Assembly: GCA_965206845.1 (NCBI GenBank)
Contig: OZ242221.1
Coordinates: forward strand, 1,056,001-1,120,000
Reading direction: 5' to 3'
From: Cenarchaeum sp.
Lineage (GTDB): Archaea > Thermoproteota > Nitrososphaeria > Nitrososphaerales > Nitrosopumilaceae
Length of the DNA stretch: 64,000 nt
Shown: piece by piece, positions 8,340 through 28,692 of the stretch
How positions within the stretch are numbered: the stretch's first letter is position 1
How the letters are laid out: each line of letters starts with the position of its first letter
The notes under the pieces: model-generated
Database searches by the model: none
Seen by the model: the letters and a program-made list of their open reading frames with translations, nothing else
Told to the model about the DNA's origin: nothing
Position numbers and translations under genes: made by a program

Positions 8340-8439
8340 ACCTGCACTGTTCCCCTAATCTATTAATTCTTGTTTGTGTGGGGAATTGTGGTATATAGTT
8401 CCCATACGTTTAAAATTCTTGGAGCCCCCCCGGCATCGT

Positions 8440-17604: not shown

Positions 17605-18924
17605 ATGGGACACACCACGCTGCAGATCGGACTGGACGACACAGACTCTGTCCGGGGGATGTGTACCACGTTTCTTGCGTATGCTATGGTGGGCATGCTG
17701 AGGGACCAGGGGGCCCGGTTTCTTGACTATCCTCGCTTGGTCCGGCTCAATCCCAACATCCCCTGGAAGACCAGGGGAAATGGGGCCGTTGCGCTAAAGG
17801 TCAGGACCGATGATGCCCCCAGGCTCAAGGAGATGGCCCTGGATATGATGGAGAGTCACGCAGACACGGCAAACGGGGCAAATCCAGGCCTCGTCTTCCT
17901 CGAGGGGGACGACATGCCGGGGGAGATGAGCCGGTTTGGCAGCCTGGCCCTGTGGCGGCTGATAAGAAGGCAGGATGCCAGGAGGCTTGTCCGGCGGTGC
18001 GGCCTCGAGTCGCACCACCTGGGCAACGGCCAGGGGCTTGTGGGCGCCATCGCAGCCCTGGGGTACCGCTTTGGGGACAACACCATGGAGATGCTAAGCT
18101 ACAGGAGGGGCGACAGGTTTGGAACTAGGCGCGACATATCCGCCCCCAGCGTCAGGCGGATGCAGGAGGAGGTGCCGTCCACCTTTGGCAGCTATGATGT
18201 CCGCCGGGACAGGGTTCTGATCACGCCGGGCGGGCCTGACCCCGTATTCTACGGAATCCGCGGCGAGGATCCAAAGTCCCTGCTGCGCGCATCGGAGATG
18301 ATCAAGGCAGGCGAGCCGCTGGCAGGATACCTTCTCTTCCGATCAAACCAGGGCACCGGGGATCACCTGCAGAACCGCCTTGATGCCCGTGACCTGAGGC
18401 CGTATGACTCGGGTGTCATATCGGGCACGGTGGCGGCAAAGCCCGTGACTGGCCGCGGCGGCAACGTGTTCCTTGATGTCGTCTCCGGCGGCAGGAACGT
18501 CTGCTGCGCGGTATACCGTGAGACCGGAATCGCCACAACGGCAGGGGAGCTGATTGCGGGGGACGGCATCCAGGTGGGCGGCGGCATCCGGCGGGCGGCG
18601 CCGGGCCGCCCCAGAACCCTGAATGTGGAGTTCATCAGGGTCCTGAGGCTGGCGCGGGGCACGGTCTGGACCAATCCGGCGTGCCCGCAGTGCAAAAAGA
18701 GGATGAAGTCAAGGGGGCAGAACCAGGGGTACCGGTGCCAGATATGCAAGATGCAGAGCCCTGTCAGGGTGTCCCGGCCGGTGCCACGGGACATCCGGCG
18801 GGACCTCTACATCCCGGCCGTGGGCGCCCACAGGCACCTGACAAGGCCGAGGCAGAGGCTGGGCCGGATCAACAACGCCGCGTTTGACGACGAGCTTCCG
18901 TGGTTTGTGGTGTATCGTAAATAG
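17605..18924 (+). CDS. tiaS: tRNA(Ile2) agmatinylcytidine synthetase
   Basis: IGLDDTD..GMCTT, RLNPNIPWKTRGNGA, PDPVFYGIRG, NQGTGDH, Zn ribbon, RHLTRP. Confidence 0.95.
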   Translation: MGHTTLQIGLDDTDSVRGMCTTFLAYAMVGMLRDQGARFLDYPRLVRLNPNIPWKTRGNGAVALKVRTDDAPRLKEMALDMMESHADTANGANPGLVFLEGDDMPGEMSRFGSLALWRLIRRQDARRLVRRCGLESHHLGNGQGLVGAIAALGYRFGDNTMEMLSYRRGDRFGTRRDISAPSVRRMQEEVPSTFGSYDVRRDRVLITPGGPDPVFYGIRGEDPKSLLRASEMIKAGEPLAGYLLFRSNQGTGDHLQNRLDARDLRPYDSGVISGTVAAKPVTGRGGNVFLDVVSGGRNVCCAVYRETGIATTAGELIAGDGIQVGGGIRRAAPGRPRTLNVEFIRVLRLARGTVWTNPACPQCKKRMKSRGQNQGYRCQICKMQSPVRVSRPVPRDIRRDLYIPAVGAHRHLTRPRQRLGRINNAAFDDELPWFVVYRK

Positions 18925-19028
18925 CGGGGAGTAGATTTGAACTACTGATTTGCGGGTATCTCATCACTGATTATGAGCCCGCCGGGATGACTTTGTCCCA
19001 GATTCAAGTCTGACTTCCCCACCCCGCT
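18922..19028 (-). tRNA. Initiator tRNA-Met(CAT) with a canonical 37/38 intron and a second D-loop insertion
   Basis: Reverse complement: AGCGGGG acceptor (A1-U72), GCGGG-CTCATA[ATCAGTGATGAGAT]A-CCCGC with BHB helix CTCA/TGAG, AGTAG-TTCAAAT-CTACT T-arm; about 18 extra nt in the D-loop. Confidence 0.88.
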
Positions 19029-19255
19029 GATACACAAAACAAAAAGGCCGTATATACGCTTTATCCAACGAATGGCCCTGTCCAAAAGGGAGGAGTTAGG
19101 CCTCCAGCTCTGCCGGCCCGGCTGCCACCGGAACCGTCAAAGCCGGAGACCCAGCTTCTCCTTTCTGTACAGGGCCGCCAGCATCACGTACAATATAGAT
19201 CTGTCCGTATTGTCCAAATATTGTCTAAGCCGATACGCCTGGGATGGTTTGGTTT

Positions 19256-21418
19256 GGGAATTATATAGTTAAGTGAACTGCCGGCGCCGCCACACGGCCG
19301 TGGCCTCCCGTCCCGGCCGATCATGCGGTTCGGCAGACCGGTCTTCCCGGTTCCAGACCGGCCGGCGGCTGTCCGGGTTTTTTGACGCCGACCTGCATCC
19401 CGGGGCAGGCAGGAGCCCCGGAAAGCTACGGCTTTGTTGCGCCTTTCATATAGGCAAATGCCGGATCCATACTTGGGATGCAGTCTCAGACCGATCCGGC
19501 ATTGTAAGACGAGAATTGCATTCAAAAGCGGCCAAAACCCGTCCTTTTCGGGCTTTTTGTTCCGAGAGCCGTTCATGCGCGATGCCGGCCCGGCGCCAGT
19601 GAAGGCCTGAAACGCGCCGGCAGGCGCAGCGGAAATGACGGACGTGACAGTGCGGACGGTCCGCACGGCCGGAGCGGCACCGCCATATCTCCTTTTTATA
19701 TTCGGCAGGTATTTGCATGCGGTAATGAAACCCATCATGGCAACCGCAATTGCGACAACGGTAGCGGCAACAGCAACGGCAACCGAGCCGGCACCAAAAA
19801 AGTGGTCAAAGCGCTCAATAGATGGCACCATGATGCGCACCATAAAGGTGGACTTTGATCAGTCGGCCGAGATGTCGGATCTCATATCGCGCCACATGGA
19901 CCAGCAGAGGTGGGCGTTCAACATGGCCGTCAAGGAGAAGCTGAAAGACCCCAGGACGACAAAGTTTGACCTCAACAACATGCTCACAGGATGGAGAAAC
20001 GGAAAGAAGTGGATGAATGGCGGCTTCCTTGCGCAGAGGGCCGGCCTCCTGCTGGGCTTGGACGCGGTAAAGAAGTTTATGGACTCCAACGGCAAAAAGC
20101 GCCGCAACAAGTCATTATGGAAATACCTGGCCAGGCGCCACAGGGAAAGGGAGGGCATCAATGACATCGACATCAACACAGCGCCCAACCTGCCGTCCAA
20201 CAGGTGGAGCAACAAGAGGAACAAATGGACCCACACCAATGACCTGTTCAAGAGGAAGGGGGAGCAGCTGTCCCTCTCGGTGTTCGCGAAGCCGGTGCAT
20301 AAGGGCAACAACATGGTGATGCTCCCCGACATAGGCACCGTAAAAGTGCACGGCGACGTGGAGGGGCTCGACATGCGATCCTTTCAGCTGGTGGAGACGA
20401 CGAAGAGGACCACGAAGCGCACCGAAAGCCACAACAGGACGTACAGACTCCACATCCAGATCAGGACAAAGGCGCCGGAGCCCGCGGAATCCGACACCAT
20501 ACGCGGCATCGACATGGGAATCGTCCACGGCGCCGCCACCGTCGACCTAGATACCGGCCGCCACGCGTTTCATGACCTCCCAAAGGACTGCAGGAGGGCC
20601 AAGGACGACGACCTGTCCAGGATGTACTCCGAGCTCTCACGGAAGCGCGGCGGGAGGGGCAACCGCAGGATCAGGCAGGACACCAAGGAGGGCGCGGACT
20701 GCGGGAACGGAGCCAACGATAAAGATAACGGTAACGGCGGCGGCAACACGAGCGGCAGCATCGGCAATAACAACACGCACGGCCACAAAAAAAACAAGCC
20801 GAGGAAACCAAAGTCAAGAAGCTACAAGGAACTCCAAAGGAAGATCAGGAAAAAGAGGGAAAAGCTTGCCAACCGCCAGACGAACTGGGAAAGGCACGCG
20901 TCAAAGAAGATAGCCGATGGCGCTGGCACAGTGGTCATGGAGGACTTGGACCTCGTGAACATGACTGCAAGGGCCAAGGGAAAGGGCAGCTCCGCCAAGA
21001 CCGGGCTCAACCGCGAGATGGCCTATTCCCGGCCCGGCACGTTCCAGCGCCAGATCGGGCAGGCGTGCGCGAACGCCGGGGTGACCGTCATAATGGTGGA
21101 TCCCAAGGGCACGAGCATCACATGCCACCAGTGCGGCCGCGAGGACGGGAACTCCCGCGTGTCGCAGGGCAGATTCAAATGCGCCAATGACAACTGTTAC
21201 AATGACGTCAACGCGGACATCAATGCCGCGTATAATATTGCCTCCAAGGCGAAAGCCGTGGCGGCAGGGCGGCGGGGATCGTCGTCTGAAGGCGCGAGAA
21301 GCCAGCGCGGGATTGCTCCCGCGCGTTCCGCAAACAGCACGCGAGAGCCAAGCGTGGGAGGCAATGCAAGAGCGCCAGCAAAAGACATGGGTGCTGTACA
21401 CTCATGTATATAATTCCC
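19256..21418 (+). mobile_element. Putative non-autonomous element carrying tnpB, bounded by 26-bp imperfect inverted repeats
   Basis: Left end GGGAATTATATAGTTAAGTGAACTGC; reverse complement of right end GGGAATTATATACATGAGTGTACAGC (21/26 identical, outer 12 perfect); no transposase inside. Confidence 0.6.
19725..21413 (+). CDS. tnpB: TnpB-family RNA-guided RuvC endonuclease (~562 aa)
   Basis: RuvC-I GIDMG, RuvC-II VMEDL, Zn finger TS..CHQCG...FKCANDNC, RuvC-III NADINAA; ATG 19725 lies about 25 bp after TTTTTATA. Confidence 0.9.
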   Translation: MKPIMATAIATTVAATATATEPAPKKWSKRSIDGTMMRTIKVDFDQSAEMSDLISRHMDQQRWAFNMAVKEKLKDPRTTKFDLNNMLTGWRNGKKWMNGGFLAQRAGLLLGLDAVKKFMDSNGKKRRNKSLWKYLARRHREREGINDIDINTAPNLPSNRWSNKRNKWTHTNDLFKRKGEQLSLSVFAKPVHKGNNMVMLPDIGTVKVHGDVEGLDMRSFQLVETTKRTTKRTESHNRTYRLHIQIRTKAPEPAESDTIRGIDMGIVHGAATVDLDTGRHAFHDLPKDCRRAKDDDLSRMYSELSRKRGGRGNRRIRQDTKEGADCGNGANDKDNGNGGGNTSGSIGNNNTHGHKKNKPRKPKSRSYKELQRKIRKKREKLANRQTNWERHASKKIADGAGTVVMEDLDLVNMTARAKGKGSSAKTGLNREMAYSRPGTFQRQIGQACANAGVTVIMVDPKGTSITCHQCGREDGNSRVSQGRFKCANDNCYNDVNADINAAYNIASKAKAVAAGRRGSSSEGARSQRGIAPARSANSTREPSVGGNARAPAKDMGAVHSCI

Positions 21419-21616
21419 TAGCAAAACGGGTCAAGTCCGAGGGCAGAGCGCCGTGGCGCATCCCACCGGCCATTCCTTTGGGTCGTGCAGTGCAGCAGGA
21501 TTCGCATGATGTGGCTCTGTCCGCTGCTGCCGTCCTTCCGGGATGTCCCTGCGGTTCTGTGGGGCGTCTGGTGAGGGTGCGCGCGCCAGACCGCCTGCAT
21601 GTCATGCCGGAATGGC

Positions 21617-23140
21617 CTACTGCGGCTCGATGGTGGCAGGCGGCTTGCTTGAGATCGTGTATGTCACCCAGGTCACGTCCTCGATCTCGTTGGTGATCCT
21701 GTTGCTGATCCTCTCAAGGGTCTCATGGGAGAGCCGCGTCCAGTCGGCGGTCATGGCGTCGACCGAGTTGACTACCCGGACCATCACTATGCTTCCGTAC
21801 CTCCTCTCGTCGCCGACCACCCCCACCGCCCTGTCGTCTCCCACGGCGGCGTACGCCTGCCACACGTCATCATAGACGCCTGCCTCCAGGAGCACATCCT
21901 CCACTATCCTGCTGGCGGTCCTTGCCACCCGGAGCTTTGCCGGGGTCACCTCCCCGATGATCCGCACCGCCAGGCCGGGGCCGGGGAACGGGTGCCTCCT
22001 GACTATCCTGTCAGGCACGCCCAGGATCCTTGCAACCTCCCTCACCTCGTCCTTGTAGAGGTTCCTCAGCGGCTCCAGCACCTTAAGATCCAGCCAGTCG
22101 GGCAGCCCGCCCACGTTGTGGTGCGATTTTATCACCGCCGCGGGGCCCTTTGACACCCCGCTCTCGATCACGTCCGGGTACAGCGTTCCCTGGGCCAGCC
22201 AGGAGAACGGCCCGTTCCTCTCTGCAAACTCCGAGAAGACTCTGACAAACTCCTCTCCCACCGCCTTACGCTTGGCCTCGGGGTCTGCAACCCCCCTCAG
22301 TCCCTCGAGAAACCTCTCGGCGGCGGAGACCGCCGTAAAGTTCACGTGAAAGTTATCCCGGAAGATCGCCTCGATCTCGTCCCCCTCGTCCTGCCGGAGC
22401 AGCCCGTTGTCGATGAAGACCCCATGCAGTCGATCCCCGATCGCCCTGTGAATCAGCAGCGCGGCGACAGTCGAGTCTATCCCGCCGCTTACCCCGCACA
22501 GGACGCGGCCCTGGATCCCCGATATCTCGCCCACCGCGCGATCCACAAACGCCTCCATGGTCCAGTCCTGCCGGGCCCCGCATATCTTCAACACAAAATT
22601 CTTCAGGATCTCCGTGCCCTTCTGTGTGTGGACCACCTCCGGATGGAACTGTATCCCATAGACTGGCCTGTCGGTGCCTGCGATTGCGGCGGCCCTTGCG
22701 TTGCTTGTGTGGCCTATGATCTGAAATCCCGGGGGGATCTGCTCGGCCTCGTCGCCGTGGCTCATCCATGCCCGGACAGACCGGCCGATGCCGCCCAGCA
22801 GGCTCCCGTCGTCATCCACCGTGAGCAGCGACGAGCCGTACTCCCGGTTTGCCCTCTTTACCCTGCCTCCAAACCTGTCCACTATGACCTGGTGCCCGTA
22901 GCATATTCCAAGGACCGGAAGCCCCAGGTCAAATATCCCTGCCGCGGGGACGGGCGCATCGGCGCTGTAGACGCTGGACGGGCCTCCCGAGAGTATTATC
23001 CCCCTGGGGTTGCGCCCCTCCAGCTCCCCTAGCGTGATGTCGTAGGGGACCAGCTCAGCATACACCGAGAATTCCCGGATCCTTCTGCATATGAGGTGGC
23101 TGTACTGCGAGCCAAAGTCCAGGACCACTATTCTGTCCAT
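21617..23140 (-). CDS. guaA: GMP synthase (glutamine-hydrolysing, fused)
   Basis: LDFGSQY, GICYG, QFHPEV, SGGIDS, KSHHNVGG, KPPATIE. Confidence 0.97.
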   Translation of the reverse strand: MDRIVVLDFGSQYSHLICRRIREFSVYAELVPYDITLGELEGRNPRGIILSGGPSSVYSADAPVPAAGIFDLGLPVLGICYGHQVIVDRFGGRVKRANREYGSSLLTVDDDGSLLGGIGRSVRAWMSHGDEAEQIPPGFQIIGHTSNARAAAIAGTDRPVYGIQFHPEVVHTQKGTEILKNFVLKICGARQDWTMEAFVDRAVGEISGIQGRVLCGVSGGIDSTVAALLIHRAIGDRLHGVFIDNGLLRQDEGDEIEAIFRDNFHVNFTAVSAAERFLEGLRGVADPEAKRKAVGEEFVRVFSEFAERNGPFSWLAQGTLYPDVIESGVSKGPAAVIKSHHNVGGLPDWLDLKVLEPLRNLYKDEVREVARILGVPDRIVRRHPFPGPGLAVRIIGEVTPAKLRVARTASRIVEDVLLEAGVYDDVWQAYAAVGDDRAVGVVGDERRYGSIVMVRVVNSVDAMTADWTRLSHETLERISNRITNEIEDVTWVTYTISSKPPATIEPQ

Positions 23141-23144
23141 GCGA

Positions 23145-23735
23145 TCACTCGATCTTTTCCAGCATGCGCGAGAGTGTCCAGCCGATGGAGCTCCTGATCT
23201 CCTTGGCCCGGTCCTTGGTGCGGTAGTTTCTGACTATGATCCGGCGGAGCTCGCCGCCGTCCTGCTCAAGCAGGCACTCGATCGCCGCGCCCTCCGCGGC
23301 CTGCTCGTCCTTTCTCTTCATGTCGCCTATGATCCTGTCCAGGAAGAATGTCTTCAGGGGCGGGATGTCGGCCTTGAGGCCCAGTCCGCCCTCCAAGGTG
23401 ATGGCTATCTCGTCTGCTGCGGTGTCAAATCTGGCAAGCCTCTTGCCGCCCCGATCTCTTCTGATGAACTCCCGGTCCGACCCGGGCGCCGGTTCCTTTG
23501 GCGGCCGCGTCCCGGCAGTGTCAGAGCCCCCCGGGGCCGGATCCGGCCCGGCTGGCGTGGGCGCCGGCACCTTTAGCGATGATGCTCTGGTGTAGCTGGA
23601 ACTCTTCAGGATCAGATCCAGAACGTGGATGTGTCTTCTGGCATACTCAAGCCTCTCCTCGAGCTTCTCGGCCTCCAGCGTGATGCGCTCCCGAAGCTCC
23701 AGCACGTCCTTCATCTCCTCATCGGGATACTGCAT
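23145..23735 (-). CDS. Conserved hypothetical protein (N-terminal coiled coil, Pro-rich linker)
   Basis: Clean ORF directly upstream of guaA with a TATA-like box; no recognisable motif. Confidence 0.7.
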   Translation of the reverse strand: MQYPDEEMKDVLELRERITLEAEKLEERLEYARRHIHVLDLILKSSSYTRASSLKVPAPTPAGPDPAPGGSDTAGTRPPKEPAPGSDREFIRRDRGGKRLARFDTAADEIAITLEGGLGLKADIPPLKTFFLDRIIGDMKRKDEQAAEGAAIECLLEQDGGELRRIIVRNYRTKDRAKEIRSSIGWTLSRMLEKIE

Positions 23736-23767
23736 GGTGTTACTGTATGTAATTCCCTATTAAAACG

Positions 23768-26813: not shown

Positions 26814-27539
26814 ATGAGATCAACCATTTTTATCATTATTGTGCTACTGTCGGGCGCCGCTGCTGGCGCCATTCACGGCACGGTAAACCTGGCGATAGTC
26901 GAGCCGTACCTGGATCGGGCCACAAGCATAGAGAACCAGAACCTCTTTGCCGCAGACGAGGCGGACGACACGTTGGAGTTCTGGGTCGAGTACGACTCGT
27001 ACAGGTACTGGCAGAAGGGCGGCCAGGTTCTGGCCAGCGTCATCCTGGGCACCTCCACCGGCGCCCTGTTTGGCATAGTCTACGCCCTCTCCAGGAAGTC
27101 CATTCCCGGGGATCACGACATCCGAAAGGCGCTGGTCTTGGCGGGTGTCATGTGGCTGGCGGTGTTTCTGATACCGTTCCTCAAGTACCCCGCAAACCCG
27201 CCCACGGTGGGTGACGGTGACACCGTGGTGCTGCGCGGGGCCCTGTACTTGGCGTTTATAGCAATCTCCGGGCTCTCGGCTCTGGGCTTTTGCATGCTCT
27301 CAAGGAGGCTGCGGGGTTCCCGCAAGCTGCTGGCCGCTGCGGGGTACGGCATCCTTGTGGGCGCCGTGTTTGTCGCAATGCCAGACAATCCAGACGAGAC
27401 GACGGCCCCTGCCGATCTGGTGGACGGCTTTCGCATAATGTCTGTGGTGGCAGTCTCCAGCTACTGGCTTGTCCTGCCGCTGATTCTGGGCTCGCTCTGG
27501 AACAAGCTCCGGCCGGACAGGCCGCTCGCCACCACGTAG
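26814..27539 (+). CDS. cbtA: Cobalt transporter subunit CbtA
   Basis: EP.LDRA..IE, PFLKYPANPP.VG, multiple TM helices; follows cbtB. Confidence 0.9.
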   Translation: MRSTIFIIIVLLSGAAAGAIHGTVNLAIVEPYLDRATSIENQNLFAADEADDTLEFWVEYDSYRYWQKGGQVLASVILGTSTGALFGIVYALSRKSIPGDHDIRKALVLAGVMWLAVFLIPFLKYPANPPTVGDGDTVVLRGALYLAFIAISGLSALGFCMLSRRLRGSRKLLAAAGYGILVGAVFVAMPDNPDETTAPADLVDGFRIMSVVAVSSYWLVLPLILGSLWNKLRPDRPLATT

Positions 27540-27597
27540 CCCGGGTGCGGCCGCATCTCCGAAAGTAATTAAATGATCTGCGGGCATCCTGTCGGTA

Positions 27598-28692
27598 TTG
27601 GATAAAAGGCTGCGAATCATGGGCATTGCGGCAGCAGTTGCCGCATCGGCGCTGATCCTCAGCTCGCCCTCGGAGACCATCCCGCTGCCGCGACCCACCG
27701 ACCCGGAGCCCGAGGGCAGGCCGGTGGAGATCCTGGCTACCAACCTGGACAAGCCCAGGGGCATAGCGGCCTCCGGCGACAGGGTCTTTGTCACGGAGAA
27801 GGACGGGAGGATTCGCGTCGTGGAGGGCGGCGCCCTGCTGGAGCGGCCCCTTGCCACCCTGAGAACCGCAGACGTCTTCGGCGGCGGGCTGCTGGGGATT
27901 GCCACGCATCCGGACTTTGAGGAGAACCACCTCCTGTACGTCTACTTTACCTATGTGGAGGGCGGCGAGCTCCAGAACAGGATCATGAGGATAACCGAGT
28001 CAGAGAACAGGCTGGTGTCTGCTGAGACCATACTGGACGGGATTCCTGGATCACCCTTCGCCAACGGCGGGTTCCTGAAGTTTGGCCCCGACGGCAAGCT
28101 CTACGCCGGTACCGGCTCCGTCTCTGACTCCTTGCACCTGTCACAGGACGCCGACTCCCTGGCGGGGAAGATACTGAGAATAAACGACGACGGCACGATA
28201 CCAGACGACAACCCGGTTCCCGGCTCCGCAGTGTATGCGTTGGGGTTCCGGGATCCCCAAGGACTGGCTTGGAACGAGTCCGGGGATCTGATCGTGGCAG
28301 ACTTGGGGCCGACCAAGAACGACGAGATAAACGTCGTGCAAAAGGCAGGCAACTTTGGCTGGCCGGACCAGGAGTGCCAGGGGAACCCGGAGTTTGTGGA
28401 CTCGGCCATATGCTATGATCCCGCAATCGAGCCGGGGGGCATAGTGCTCTACTCCGGCGACAGGCTGCCGCTGGAGGGCAGGCTTATAGTGGCGTCCCTG
28501 AGGGCGGTCAACCTCTTCGAGCTGGACATGGAGGAGGGCCTGGGCTCCCAGAAGAGCATCCTCAGCGGACTGGGAAGGGTGCGCGATGTATATGAGGACG
28601 GCGACGGAAATCTCTACGTGATAACGTCAAACACCGACGGAAAGGGCTTTCCGGGCCAGGACGACGACATGCTCCTGAGGATAGTGCGATGA
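27598..28692 (+). CDS. PQQ-dependent glucose/sorbosone dehydrogenase family protein
   Basis: GLLGIATHPDF, FGPDGKLY, GKILRI, GFRDPQGLAW, DEIN, GRVRDV. Confidence 0.88.
   Translation: MDKRLRIMGIAAAVAASALILSSPSETIPLPRPTDPEPEGRPVEILATNLDKPRGIAASGDRVFVTEKDGRIRVVEGGALLERPLATLRTADVFGGGLLGIATHPDFEENHLLYVYFTYVEGGELQNRIMRITESENRLVSAETILDGIPGSPFANGGFLKFGPDGKLYAGTGSVSDSLHLSQDADSLAGKILRINDDGTIPDDNPVPGSAVYALGFRDPQGLAWNESGDLIVADLGPTKNDEINVVQKAGNFGWPDQECQGNPEFVDSAICYDPAIEPGGIVLYSGDRLPLEGRLIVASLRAVNLFELDMEEGLGSQKSILSGLGRVRDVYEDGDGNLYVITSNTDGKGFPGQDDDMLLRIVR

What the first reader, a model, noticed from the sequence alone, without database searches (positions are those of the whole stretch)
19256..21418. Catalytically intact TnpB bracketed by terminal inverted repeats: candidate TIR-type (DDE-mobilised) RNA-guided element
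Seen: a 2163-bp segment whose only credible gene is tnpB starts GGGAATTATATAGTTAAGTGAACTGC and ends in its imperfect reverse complement (21/26, outer 12 bp perfect). The right repeat contains the tnpB stop codon. No Y1 TnpA or serine recombinase is nearby. Established: prokaryotic TnpB normally rides IS200/IS605 (subterminal hairpins) or IS607, neither of which has TIRs, whereas TIR/DDE carriers are known for eukaryotic Fanzors. Inference: this may be an archaeal TnpB captured in a non-autonomous TIR element and moved in trans by a DDE transposase. The guide would come from the right flank (TAGCAAAACGGGTCAAG...) and the TAM from the left flank (...GGTTTGGTTT). Caveats: there is no obvious target-site duplication and the perfect core is AT-rich.
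Basis: partly seen in the sequence, partly recalled or inferred. Interest (0 to 1): 0.85.

Follow-up and report, generated by a model that had tools for sequence, protein, structure and literature searches.

The report
TnpB element with DDE-type ends
This is one copy of a family of small archaeal jumping genes that carry only the RNA-guided nuclease TnpB, yet have the inverted ends and 8-base target duplications of an IS1595-type "cut/copy-and-paste" transposon, a kind of partnership described only recently in prokaryotes.

Summary
Window 19256-21418 starts and ends with GGGAATTATATA in inverted orientation (21/26 over 26 nt), and the tnpB stop codon lies inside the right repeat.

The genome holds 15 full-length copies whose homology stops at exactly these ends. 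Ten have perfect 8-bp target-site duplications (TSDs). The window copy has none. A near-identical strain shows two reciprocal filled/empty sites, each empty site keeping one copy of the 8-mer.

The genome has no Y1 or serine transposase. It has one intact IS1595-family DDE transposase and one decayed one; the decayed one sits beside a perfect GGGAATTATATAC terminus. IS1595 elements of related genomes carry the same termini, and the two with both ends defined have 8-bp TSDs.

The last ~200 nt form a conserved, covarying ωRNA-like structure. Short, high-depth RNA contigs match this region in two sponge metatranscriptome runs of one study.

A G sits immediately 5' of the TSD, on the tnpB-upstream side only, in 15/15 copies here and 16/21 in a related genus. 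It may be a TAM.

DDE-associated prokaryotic TnpBs with inverted ends, including solo copies moved in trans, were published in 2023. The IS1595 link appears to be new.

The parts
19247..19255 (+). Left flank: G at -9 (19247) followed by the 8 nt (TTTGGTTT) that occupy the target-duplication position. In this copy they are not repeated on the right.
   Evidence: G at -9 is found in 15/15 copies of this genome.
19256..19281 (+). Left terminal inverted repeat (LE), GGGAATTATATAGTTAAGTGAACTGC. The outer 12 nt are family-wide. The inner GTTAAGTGAAC motif is shared with five other copies and with the end of the genome's IS1595 transposase gene.
19282..19724 (+). 5' leader. It is conserved at about 78% in the long copies c375, c972 and c489, and no protein family was found in it.
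19725..21413 (+). tnpB, 562 aa from the conserved MKPIM start (the longest ORF starts at 19635). RuvC residues D293/E436/D528 and Zn-finger cysteines C497/C500/C516/C521 are numbered on the 592-aa ORF.
   Evidence: P0003 = 562 aa, 100% identical; NF040570, 115 bits against a cut-off of 100.
21201..21418 (+). ωRNA-like scaffold overlapping the tnpB 3' end and the right repeat. Eight helices span 21212-21407, followed by 11 nt (ATATAATTCCC) to the element end.
   Evidence: 50 pairs, 97.3% of cells paired, 11 pairs with compensatory changes, covariation 0.230 against 0.123 shuffled and 0.035-0.082 slid. RNA contigs of runs X19 and X20 both start at 21201.
21393..21418 (-). Right terminal inverted repeat (RE), read inward as GGGAATTATATACATGAGTGTACAGC. 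It contains the tnpB stop codon (21411-21413) and the 3' arm of the terminal hairpin.
21419..21438 (+). Predicted guide segment of the ωRNA (the first ~20 nt outside the element, TAGCAAAACGGGTCAAGTCC). This is inferred, not shown.
   Evidence: Inferred from the established TnpB/ωRNA architecture. Weak hint: an X16 contig runs 20 nt past the RE of sister copy c972 and stops.

Best explanation
The segment is one copy of a non-autonomous, TnpB-only transposon family. Its ends and 8-bp target duplications are those of IS1595-family (DDE) insertion sequences.

Shown:
- The family is bounded by GGGAATTATATA terminal inverted repeats.
- It inserts with an 8-bp duplication.
- It has moved recently enough to be polymorphic between two strains whose compared flanks are about 99% identical.

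Inferred:
- An IS1595-type transposase supplied in trans binds the shared termini and moves the element. This genome keeps one intact gene of this type, outside the window.
- The element's own gene makes a catalytically intact TnpB.
- Its last ~200 nt make the ωRNA scaffold, which reads through the right end into the flank. The guide would therefore be the TSD plus downstream flank.
- TnpB-ωRNA would cut the unoccupied allele (G, then TSD, then right flank). Recombinational repair from an occupied copy would then restore or spread the element.
- The invariant G just 5' of the TSD on the tnpB-upstream side is the best TAM candidate. At the occupied site that position is C, the last base of the right end, so the element itself would be spared.

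The window copy has lost its duplication, probably through a flank rearrangement. Its present guide therefore no longer corresponds to its own empty site.
For: Boundaries and TSDs:
- 15 full copies; TSDs are 10 perfect, two 7/8, one 6/8, one 5/8 and one 1/8.
- the close strain's contig L098 carries an element flanked by TAACGTAG, where G000 976878-976885 has a single TAACGTAG.
- G000 copy c972 (TSD AATCACAA) is absent from that strain. There the flanks (99% identical) abut on a single AATCACAA.

Transposases:
- no Y1 or serine recombinase.
- one intact IS1595 transposase (PF12762 8e-34; NF033547 160 bits against a cut-off of 75). It keeps every residue that is invariant among 9 relatives.
- its 5' end reads GGGGCTTATATCGCTGAGTACACAT, matching the TnpB-element repeat at 19 of 25 positions.
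- a decayed IS1595 gene fragment lies about 60 bp inside a perfect solo GGGAATTATATAC terminus at 1467226.
- 13 of the 20 loci whose transposase is at least 48% identical to it have the 12-mer (up to 2 mismatches) about 60 bp upstream of the gene. Two G099 copies are complete 2131-bp ISs with perfect TIRs and perfect 8-bp TSDs.
- 6 of the 7 family genomes with this TnpB clade also have IS1595 transposase hits. These genomes are related, so they are not independent.
- TnpB elements of genus g18 have the same termini. 21 of 29 candidate end pairs show a TSD of at least 7/8.

TnpB and ωRNA: protein; structure and covariation; RNA contigs.

Target signature: G at -9 in 12/12 copies with TSD of at least 7/8 (15/15 overall) in G000, and in 16/21 in g18. 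C at +9 occurs in only 3/12 and 4/21.
Against: - No transposase lies inside any intact TnpB element, so trans-mobilisation is inferred from shared ends and co-occurrence only.
- The one intact IS1595 gene in this genome has a variant terminus (3 mismatches in the outer 12), and no matching right end was found for it.
- Inner TIR sequences of TnpB elements and IS1595 elements differ beyond about 13 nt.
- For most IS1595 loci of relatives the second end could not be found.
- A second DDE IS in the genome (PF01609, 7 copies) also makes ~8-bp TSDs, although its TIR is unrelated.
- No two TnpB copies here are more than 82.5% identical in protein, so there has been no burst of transposition.
- The window copy lacks a TSD, and no reciprocal partner copy was found.
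- ωRNA expression rests on assembled contigs from one study, which cannot show strand, ends or level.
- The G at -9 could be a transposase target preference. Both complete G099 IS1595 copies also have G at -9 on one side only.
- Nuclease activity, guide and TAM are untested.
Confidence: 0.68

Rival explanations
1. The element is a TIR/TSD transposon, but a DDE transposase other than the IS1595 type moves it. Candidates are the genome's active IS4/IS5-like IS or an enzyme encoded elsewhere in the population.
For:: a 1.21-kb IS with a PF01609 transposase has 7 copies at 94-98.6% identity and ~8-bp TSDs. It is clearly more recently active than the single IS1595 gene, and it is nested inside TnpB copy c870. 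The intact IS1595 gene's own terminus differs at 3 of the outer 12 positions.
Against: That IS ends in GGGGTTGGTGCGTAATTCT, which shares only GGG with the TnpB elements. GGGAATTATATAC is found directly upstream of IS1595 transposase genes in 13 loci, including one in this genome. Complete IS1595 copies with these ends make 8-bp TSDs.
Confidence: 0.17
2. It is an ordinary IS200/IS605 (IS1341-group) or IS607 tnpB-only element, moved by a Y1 or serine TnpA. The inverted ends would then be incidental.
For: TnpB normally rides these families. The right end has a subterminal hairpin 11-12 nt from the tip (helix 8), which recalls IS605 ends.
Against: - 8-bp TSDs and empty sites holding one copy of the 8-mer.
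- Terminal inverted repeats in all 15 copies.
- No PF01797 or PF00239 match in a 99.99%-complete genome.
- NCBIfam scores far below the cut-offs for IS607_TnpB (62.5 against 350) and IS200_TnpB (45 against 425).
Confidence: 0.02
3. The window copy, and perhaps the whole family in this genome, is a stranded relic. The ends are fossils, no transposase acts on them now, and TnpB persists for another host or selfish role.
For: The window copy has no TSD. Copies are 57-82% identical in protein. The matching-terminus IS1595 gene is decayed. The window copy's right flank lies at a break in synteny with the same-genus genome G006.
Against: There are two reciprocal insertion polymorphisms against a strain whose compared flanks are ~99% identical. 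10 of 15 TSDs are perfect. Most tnpB ORFs are intact, with an invariant catalytic triad. The ωRNA region is conserved and covaries.
Confidence: 0.12

Closest known systems
DDE-transposase-associated TnpB branches (DDE-1 to DDE-6) of Altae-Tran et al. 2023, PNAS (PMC10691335; section 9 and matched passages read)
   Same: Prokaryotic TnpB lies inside inverted terminal repeats. The TnpB 3' end is within 250 bp of the transposon end. Solo TnpBs are surrounded by ends like those of transposase-bearing relatives, taken to mean mobilisation in trans.
   Different: The main text names only IS630 for DDE-6. A 2026 review (PMC13565253, passages read) lists ISL2, IS630 and IS1031. IS1595 appears in neither main text. 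The supplements, which could place this clade, are closed. Here transposase and tnpB are not found together in an intact element, and an asymmetric G at -9 is documented.
IS1595 family insertion sequences (transposase PF12762 / NF033547)
   Same: The terminal 10-13 nt GGGAATTATA(TAC) and the 8-bp TSD are shared with bona fide IS1595-transposase elements of the same archaeal family. From memory only: ISfinder gives 8-bp repeats and ends 'ggnnatTAT' for the ISNwi1 group.
   Different: There is no transposase gene inside. The cargo is tnpB plus an ωRNA-like RNA. The inner repeat doubles as an RNA hairpin.
IS200/IS605 IS1341-group and IS607 tnpB elements
   Same: The same TnpB protein superfamily. 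The ωRNA overlaps the 3' end of tnpB and the guide is read from the flank. Copies in one genome are many and highly diverged, as reported for haloarchaea (PMC3119063, passages read).
   Different: Those families have no TIRs and no TSDs, and depend on Y1 or serine TnpA. All three features were tested here and not met.
Fanzor1 in eukaryotic TIR/DDE transposons
   Same: A TnpB-type nuclease is carried as a passenger in TIR elements that make TSDs, with the ωRNA running into the inverted repeat (reviewed in PMC13565253, passages read).
   Different: Fanzors are found in eukaryotes and their viruses, and are larger proteins carried by other transposon superfamilies. No phylogenetic link was tested here.

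Membership tests
TnpB (RNA-guided endonuclease, NF040570 / PF07282) | Profile match above the curated cut-off over the full length | tested here: met
   NF040570 115.4 bits (cut-off 100), residues 74-538 on profile positions 5-389 of 389. PF07282 56.1 bits (cut-off 26.3).
TnpB (RNA-guided endonuclease, NF040570 / PF07282) | RuvC D-E-D triad and CxxC...CxxxxC zinc finger | tested here: met
   E436 (MEDL), D528 (NADINAA) and the cysteines align to Cas12f/TnpB chains. D293 (GIDMG) was assigned by motif. D293 and E436 are invariant and D528 is at least 90% conserved in 25 homologues.
TnpB (RNA-guided endonuclease, NF040570 / PF07282) | Structured ωRNA encoded at the 3' end, reaching the element end | tested here: met
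   covariation well above both the shuffled and the slid controls. RNA contigs over 21201-21384 (weak, contig data only).
TnpB (RNA-guided endonuclease, NF040570 / PF07282) | RNA-guided, TAM-dependent DNA cleavage | not testable with these tools
   Needs biochemistry. The candidate TAM is the G at -9.
IS200/IS605 (IS1341 group) | Y1 HUH transposase in the element or genome | tested here: not met
   no PF01797 match in the 99.99%-complete genome. The control search hit 6 of 14 genomes.
IS200/IS605 (IS1341 group) | No terminal inverted repeats and no target duplication | tested here: not met
   TIRs in all 15 copies, and 8-bp TSDs confirmed by two empty sites.
IS607 | Serine-recombinase TnpA; no TIR or TSD | tested here: not met
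   no PF00239 match. IS607_TnpB 62.5 bits against a cut-off of 350.
IS1595 family (as a non-autonomous derivative) | Termini shared with transposase-bearing IS1595 elements | tested here: met
   the 12-mer (up to 2 mismatches) lies next to the transposase 5' end in 13 of 20 loci with at least 48% identity, and in 0 of the 10 more distant loci; a solo terminus beside the decayed gene in this genome.
IS1595 family (as a non-autonomous derivative) | 8-bp target-site duplication | tested here: met
   TnpB elements. IS1595 elements L006 and L015: (2 of 2 complete copies).
IS1595 family (as a non-autonomous derivative) | IS1595 DDE transposase encoded within the element | tested here: not met
   Only tnpB lies inside. 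The transposase is elsewhere, at G000 27524-28453. Remnants of both genes in one TIR pair occur only in a decayed G018 locus.
IS1595 family (as a non-autonomous derivative) | Mobilisation by that transposase | not testable with these tools
   Needs a transposition assay.
DDE-associated TnpB branches (Altae-Tran 2023) | Inverted terminal repeats, with the TnpB 3' end within 250 bp of an end | tested here: met
   the stop codon ends 5 nt before the element end.
DDE-associated TnpB branches (Altae-Tran 2023) | Phylogenetic placement in one of branches DDE-1 to DDE-6 | not tested

The most novel reading that the evidence does not exclude
The invariant G directly 5' of the 8-bp duplication, present only on the tnpB-upstream side, is the TAM of this TnpB clade. 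A DDE (IS1595-type) transposon would then have been coupled to RNA-guided homing, so that only insertions landing behind a G persist or spread. Self-cleavage would be avoided because the element's last base is C. This would be the first natural case in which the filled allele, the empty allele, the guide and the TAM of a DDE-borne prokaryotic TnpB can all be read from wild strains. It would also describe a ~560-aa mesophilic archaeal nuclease with a near-minimal (1-nt) TAM.
Probability: 0.3. Interest if true: 0.75.

Novelty: new variant of a known kind. Interest (0 to 1): 0.55.

Why it matters
TnpB is the ancestor of Cas12. Its biology has been worked out on IS200/IS605 and IS607 elements, which excise without a scar. 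Why a guide-RNA nuclease would help a DDE transposon that makes target duplications is an open question raised in the 2023 survey and the 2026 review.

This family offers a compact natural system for that question:
- many diverged copies with exact boundaries;
- a candidate partner transposase from a family not named so far;
- real filled and empty alleles in wild strains;
- an apparently expressed ωRNA;
- a simple, testable TAM prediction.

It also shows how such elements can be recognised from sequence alone: TIR plus 8-bp TSD plus G at -9.

Tried and rejected
- Empty site for the window copy. The same-genus genome G006 is only ~69% identical. It keeps TiaS-tRNA on the left but has no guaA beside it, so no comparison was possible. 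The near-identical strain's only contig (G101:C2) does not cover this locus.
- Reciprocal partner for the missing TSD. A search for ends flanked by the complementary 8-mers gave only chance hits (noisy and uninformative).
- Second ends of IS1595 elements in relatives. Searches by own-end similarity and by TSD found clear ends only for the two G099 copies, plus a possible 1264-bp element in L016.
- Inverted-repeat search around the genome's own IS1595 gene found no matching right end.
- Rfam scan of 18800-21900 gave only a sub-threshold SAM-III hit (E 0.7). There was no ωRNA family and no tRNA call. ARAGORN also missed the intron-bearing tRNA.
- The sigma-70 promoter/terminator scan is not meaningful for an archaeon.
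- The AlphaFold2 model of TnpB from the 25-sequence alignment had a mean pLDDT of 48.7, too poor for a fold search, so none was run.
- The first related-loci scan found nothing. The second found one locus.
- c870's 342-aa DDE ORF was considered as a cognate transposase. It was rejected because it belongs to a nested, unrelated IS. The 443-aa IS66-like ORF inside L098's element was likewise treated as a nested insertion, by eye only.
- Literature searches: IS1595+TnpB (9 papers, none relevant by title or abstract start); TnpB+TIR+TSD+archaea; ISNwi1+IS1595; Thaumarchaeota+TnpB+insertion sequence (0 papers); IS1595+archaea+ammonia-oxidizing (4 papers, passages of 2 read, neither mentions TnpB). 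"IS1595 link not in print" rests on these searches and on the main texts of PMC10691335 and PMC13565253. Their supplements could not be seen.
- Read laying gaps in cover (for example 19088-19651) are not evidence of silence.
Full report
**1. The observation**

Window 19256-21418 begins GGGAATTATATAGTTAAGTGAACTGC and ends with the reverse complement of GGGAATTATATACATGAGTGTACAGC. That is 21 of 26 matches, with the outer 12 perfect. The only long ORF with a family match is tnpB (19635-21413), and its TAA stop (21411-21413) lies inside the right repeat.

The window is G000:C1:1056001-1120000, part of a single-contig genome of 1.65 Mb and 57% GC. The exact 12-mer occurs 28 times in that genome. 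About 0.2 occurrences are expected for a random 12-mer.

**2. A family with exact ends and 8-bp duplications**

BLASTN of the element plus flanks against the genome gave about 15 full-length and several partial copies at 70-80% identity. Their homology stops at the element's first and last bases.

I listed every terminus with its flanks and tabulated the 15 full copies. Ten have a perfect 8-bp direct repeat immediately outside the ends (for example GTTGATCA, TAACGAAG, TATTTAAA). Two have 7/8, one 6/8 and one 5/8. The window copy has none (1/8). A 706-bp internally deleted remnant (938659-939364) also lacks one.

Twelve of the 15 carry a tnpB open frame of at least 540 codons ending in the right repeat. 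Copies c129 and c1332 are interrupted. Copy c870 has lost its 5' half to a nested IS.

No two copies exceed 82.5% protein identity. With so many duplications still intact, most of the divergence must predate the insertions.

**3. Filled and empty sites**

A contig of a public MAG (L098 = G101:C2) is labelled as a bacterium. Its compared flanks are ~99% identical to this genome and it has 57.7% GC, so I read it as a mis-binned contig of a near-identical strain.

- That contig carries a decayed 4167-bp TnpB element flanked by TAACGTAG. This genome has the uninterrupted sequence with a single TAACGTAG at 976878-976885.
- Conversely, copy c972 of this genome (TSD AATCACAA) is missing from that contig. 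There the two flanks (99% identical) abut on a single AATCACAA.

This shows directly that insertion duplicates 8 bp. It also shows that the family has been mobile since two strains diverged whose compared flanks are ~99% identical.

**4. Which transposase**

The genome, 99.99% complete, has no Y1 (PF01797) or serine-recombinase (PF00239) match. It has one intact IS1595-family transposase outside the window, at G000 27524-28453. It is 309 aa, scores PF12762 8e-34 and NF033547 160 bits against a cut-off of 75. It keeps every residue invariant among nine homologues.

Its upstream end reads GGGGCTTATATCGCTGAGTACACAT...GTAAGTGAACAT. This matches the TnpB-element repeat at 19 of 25 positions and contains both inner motifs seen at the window copy's two ends. 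I found no matching right end for it.

A second IS1595 gene is decayed (residues 5-139, two stops). It lies about 60 bp inside a perfect solo GGGAATTATATAC terminus at 1467226.

In 100 other genomes of the same taxonomic family, 11 have IS1595 hits. One of these, G091, is unpublished and has only a weak hit. Of the 20 loci whose transposase is at least 48% identical to this genome's, 13 have the 12-mer (up to 2 mismatches) about 60 bp upstream of the gene. None of the 10 more distant loci do. Two G099 copies are complete 2131-bp ISs with perfect 24-nt TIRs starting GGGAATTATAG and perfect 8-bp TSDs.

TnpB homologues (33-39% identity over the C-terminal part, ORFs of 382-494 aa in the 21 elements with TSD of at least 7/8) occur in all five sampled genomes of genus g18. 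The same five genomes all have IS1595 transposase hits, and three of them have 12 or more. There the TnpB homologues lie in ~1.4-1.6-kb elements with GGGAATTATATAC ends. 21 of 29 candidate end pairs have a TSD of at least 7/8.

Six of the seven genomes with this TnpB clade also have IS1595 hits. These genomes are related, so this is not an independent statistic.

In G064 a TnpB element abuts a decayed IS1595 copy, 6 bp apart and in the same orientation. In G018 one TIR pair encloses remnants of both genes.

I therefore read the TnpB elements as non-autonomous relatives of IS1595 elements, mobilised in trans. The TIR/TSD mechanism is shown. The identity of the enzyme is inferred.

A rival candidate is a 1.21-kb IS with a PF01609 transposase. 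It has 7 copies at 94-98.6% identity and ~8-bp TSDs, and it is nested in copy c870. Its ends (GGGGTTGGTGCG...) are unrelated.

**5. The cargo**

TnpB matches NF040570 over its full length (115 bits against a cut-off of 100). It falls far below the IS607-TnpB and IS200-TnpB cut-offs.

E436, D528 and the CxxC...CxxxxC finger align to solved Cas12f/TnpB chains. D293 (GIDMG) and E436 are invariant, and D528 is at least 90% conserved, in 25 homologues of 57-82% identity.

The conserved N-terminus across copies points to a start at MKPIM (window 19725, 562 aa). That equals a database protein of that length.

The clade is common in public data: 151 hits, with 54-84% identity among the 120 listed relatives, all unnamed.

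**6. An ωRNA-like RNA**

The last 230 nt of the 15 copies are 85% identical per column, more than the elements overall. RNAalifold predicts eight helices across window 21212-21407.

On that structure:
- 97.3% of cells pair, against 35-49% when partners are slid by 1-3 columns;
- 11 of 50 pairs show compensatory changes;
- 44 cells show double changes, against 15.8 ± 2.9 in shuffles (0 of 500 shuffles reach it);
- the covariation score is 0.230, against 0.123 shuffled.

Several invariant G-U pairs fit only the tnpB-sense strand.

The last helix lies in the inner part of the right repeat, and 11 nt (ATATAATTCCC) separate it from the flank.

Two sponge metatranscriptome runs from one study have short contigs (195 and 213 nt, k-mer depth 549 and 346). 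Both start at 21201, run to 21366 and 21384, and then continue into sister-copy sequence. Listed contigs over the tnpB body have depths of 7-71. A 500-nt contig of a run only guessed to be RNA passes the right end of copy c972 and stops 20 nt into its flank.

These are assembled contigs. They show presence in RNA libraries, not strand, ends or level, so I treat them as a weak hint.

**7. An asymmetric target signature**

With every element oriented by tnpB, the base just 5' of the left duplication (-9) is G in 15/15 copies here. Among copies with a TSD of at least 7/8 it is G in 12/12 (binomial p = 7e-9) and in 16/21 in genus g18 (p = 6e-7). It is also G in L098.

The first TSD base is T in 10/12 and 15/21. 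The mirror position (+9) is C in only 3/12 and 4/21.

Transposase-side ends of IS1595 elements show G at -9 in 3 of 13 (read by eye from the flanks printed). Fisher's test of this against 31/36 gives p = 7e-5.

Under the established TnpB architecture the guide would be the TSD plus right flank. The TAM would then end at -9, so G is a candidate TAM. The occupied junction has C there.

The alternative is an asymmetric preference of the transposase. Both complete G099 IS copies also have G on one side only.

**8. The window copy**

Its left flank fits the family pattern (G, then T...). Its right flank is unrelated, and no partner copy with swapped flanks was found.

The left neighbours, TiaS and an intron-bearing tRNA-Met, are syntenic with the same-genus genome G006. 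guaA on the right is not. A flank rearrangement or adjacent deletion is the likeliest cause, but this is inferred.

**9. Comparison with what is known**

Altae-Tran et al. 2023 (PMC10691335; section 9 read in full, other sections by passages) report six DDE-associated TnpB branches, all with inverted terminal repeats. They also report solo TnpBs with ends like those of transposase-bearing relatives and propose trans-mobilisation. A 2026 review (PMC13565253; passages and reference list read) names ISL2, IS630 and IS1031 and calls such associations rare.

So the kind is known. IS1595 appears in neither main text, nor together with TnpB in any relevant paper found by my searches. The supplements that might list it are closed.

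My verdict is a new variant of a known kind, with good natural material for testing how TnpB serves a TSD-making transposon.

Noticed in passing
window 18925-19030 (- strand): An apparent tRNA-Met (anticodon CAT, A1-U72 acceptor AGCGGGG...CCCCGCT) carries extra sequence after the anticodon loop and in the D region, which would be introns. ARAGORN and Rfam both missed it. It is 86% identical over 144 nt in the same-genus genome G006. I read it by eye only.
   Followed up: partly
G000 870715-871928 and six other places (133006, 1210821, 1351948, 1360634, 99128, 1534089); outside the window: A 1.21-kb IS with a 342-aa PF01609 (DDE_Tnp_1) transposase, TIR GGGGTTGGTGCGTAATTCT and ~8-bp TSDs. Its 7 copies are 94-98.6% identical, so it has been active recently. 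One copy is nested in TnpB copy c870 and replaces the 5' half of its tnpB.
   Followed up: yes
G000, at least 35 places (e.g. 602157-602305, 1481632-1481778); also L098 1134-1278: A ~145-bp repeat at 92-99% identity with inverted ends (AGAGATGTGATTCG...CGGATCATGTCTC). It looks like a MITE and is unrelated to the GGGAATTATATA family. It is nested inside the decayed TnpB element of the sister strain.
   Followed up: partly
window 23746-23757 (- strand) and 8392-8403 (- strand): One-mismatch copies of the terminal 12-mer. The first (GGGAATTACATAC) lies 22 nt upstream of the ATG of an unannotated 196-aa ORF (23145-23735, no Pfam match). The 12-mer resembles an archaeal BRE/TATA promoter, so the element's ends may double as inward-facing promoters. 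Alternatively this is a solo end. I did not test either reading.
   Followed up: no
G000 976525 (= L098 354); outside the window: A solo terminus, GGGAATTATATATTTAAGTTCACAAAACGGGTGAACT, with a small hairpin. It is present at the same place in both strains, 2 kb from copy c972. It may be an old left-end remnant.
   Followed up: no
G000 copies c1049 (1049606-1051551), c1188, c770, c992, c1332: In some copies the left end is an inverted duplicate of 45-115 nt of the right (ωRNA) end. Both ends then carry the terminal hairpin and could in principle read guides outward on both sides.
   Followed up: partly
L098 (record title printed): A 31-kb contig filed under a Dehalococcoidia MAG has compared flanks ~99% identical to this archaeal genome. 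It is the only such contig found in that 2.5-Mb assembly with the two queries searched, so it is probably a binning error.
   Followed up: partly
L015/L006 (G099), element positions 353-2483: The complete 2131-bp IS1595 elements carry ~1.1 kb of extra sequence beside the transposase, including a 93-aa ORF of unknown function. This may be a passenger.
   Followed up: no
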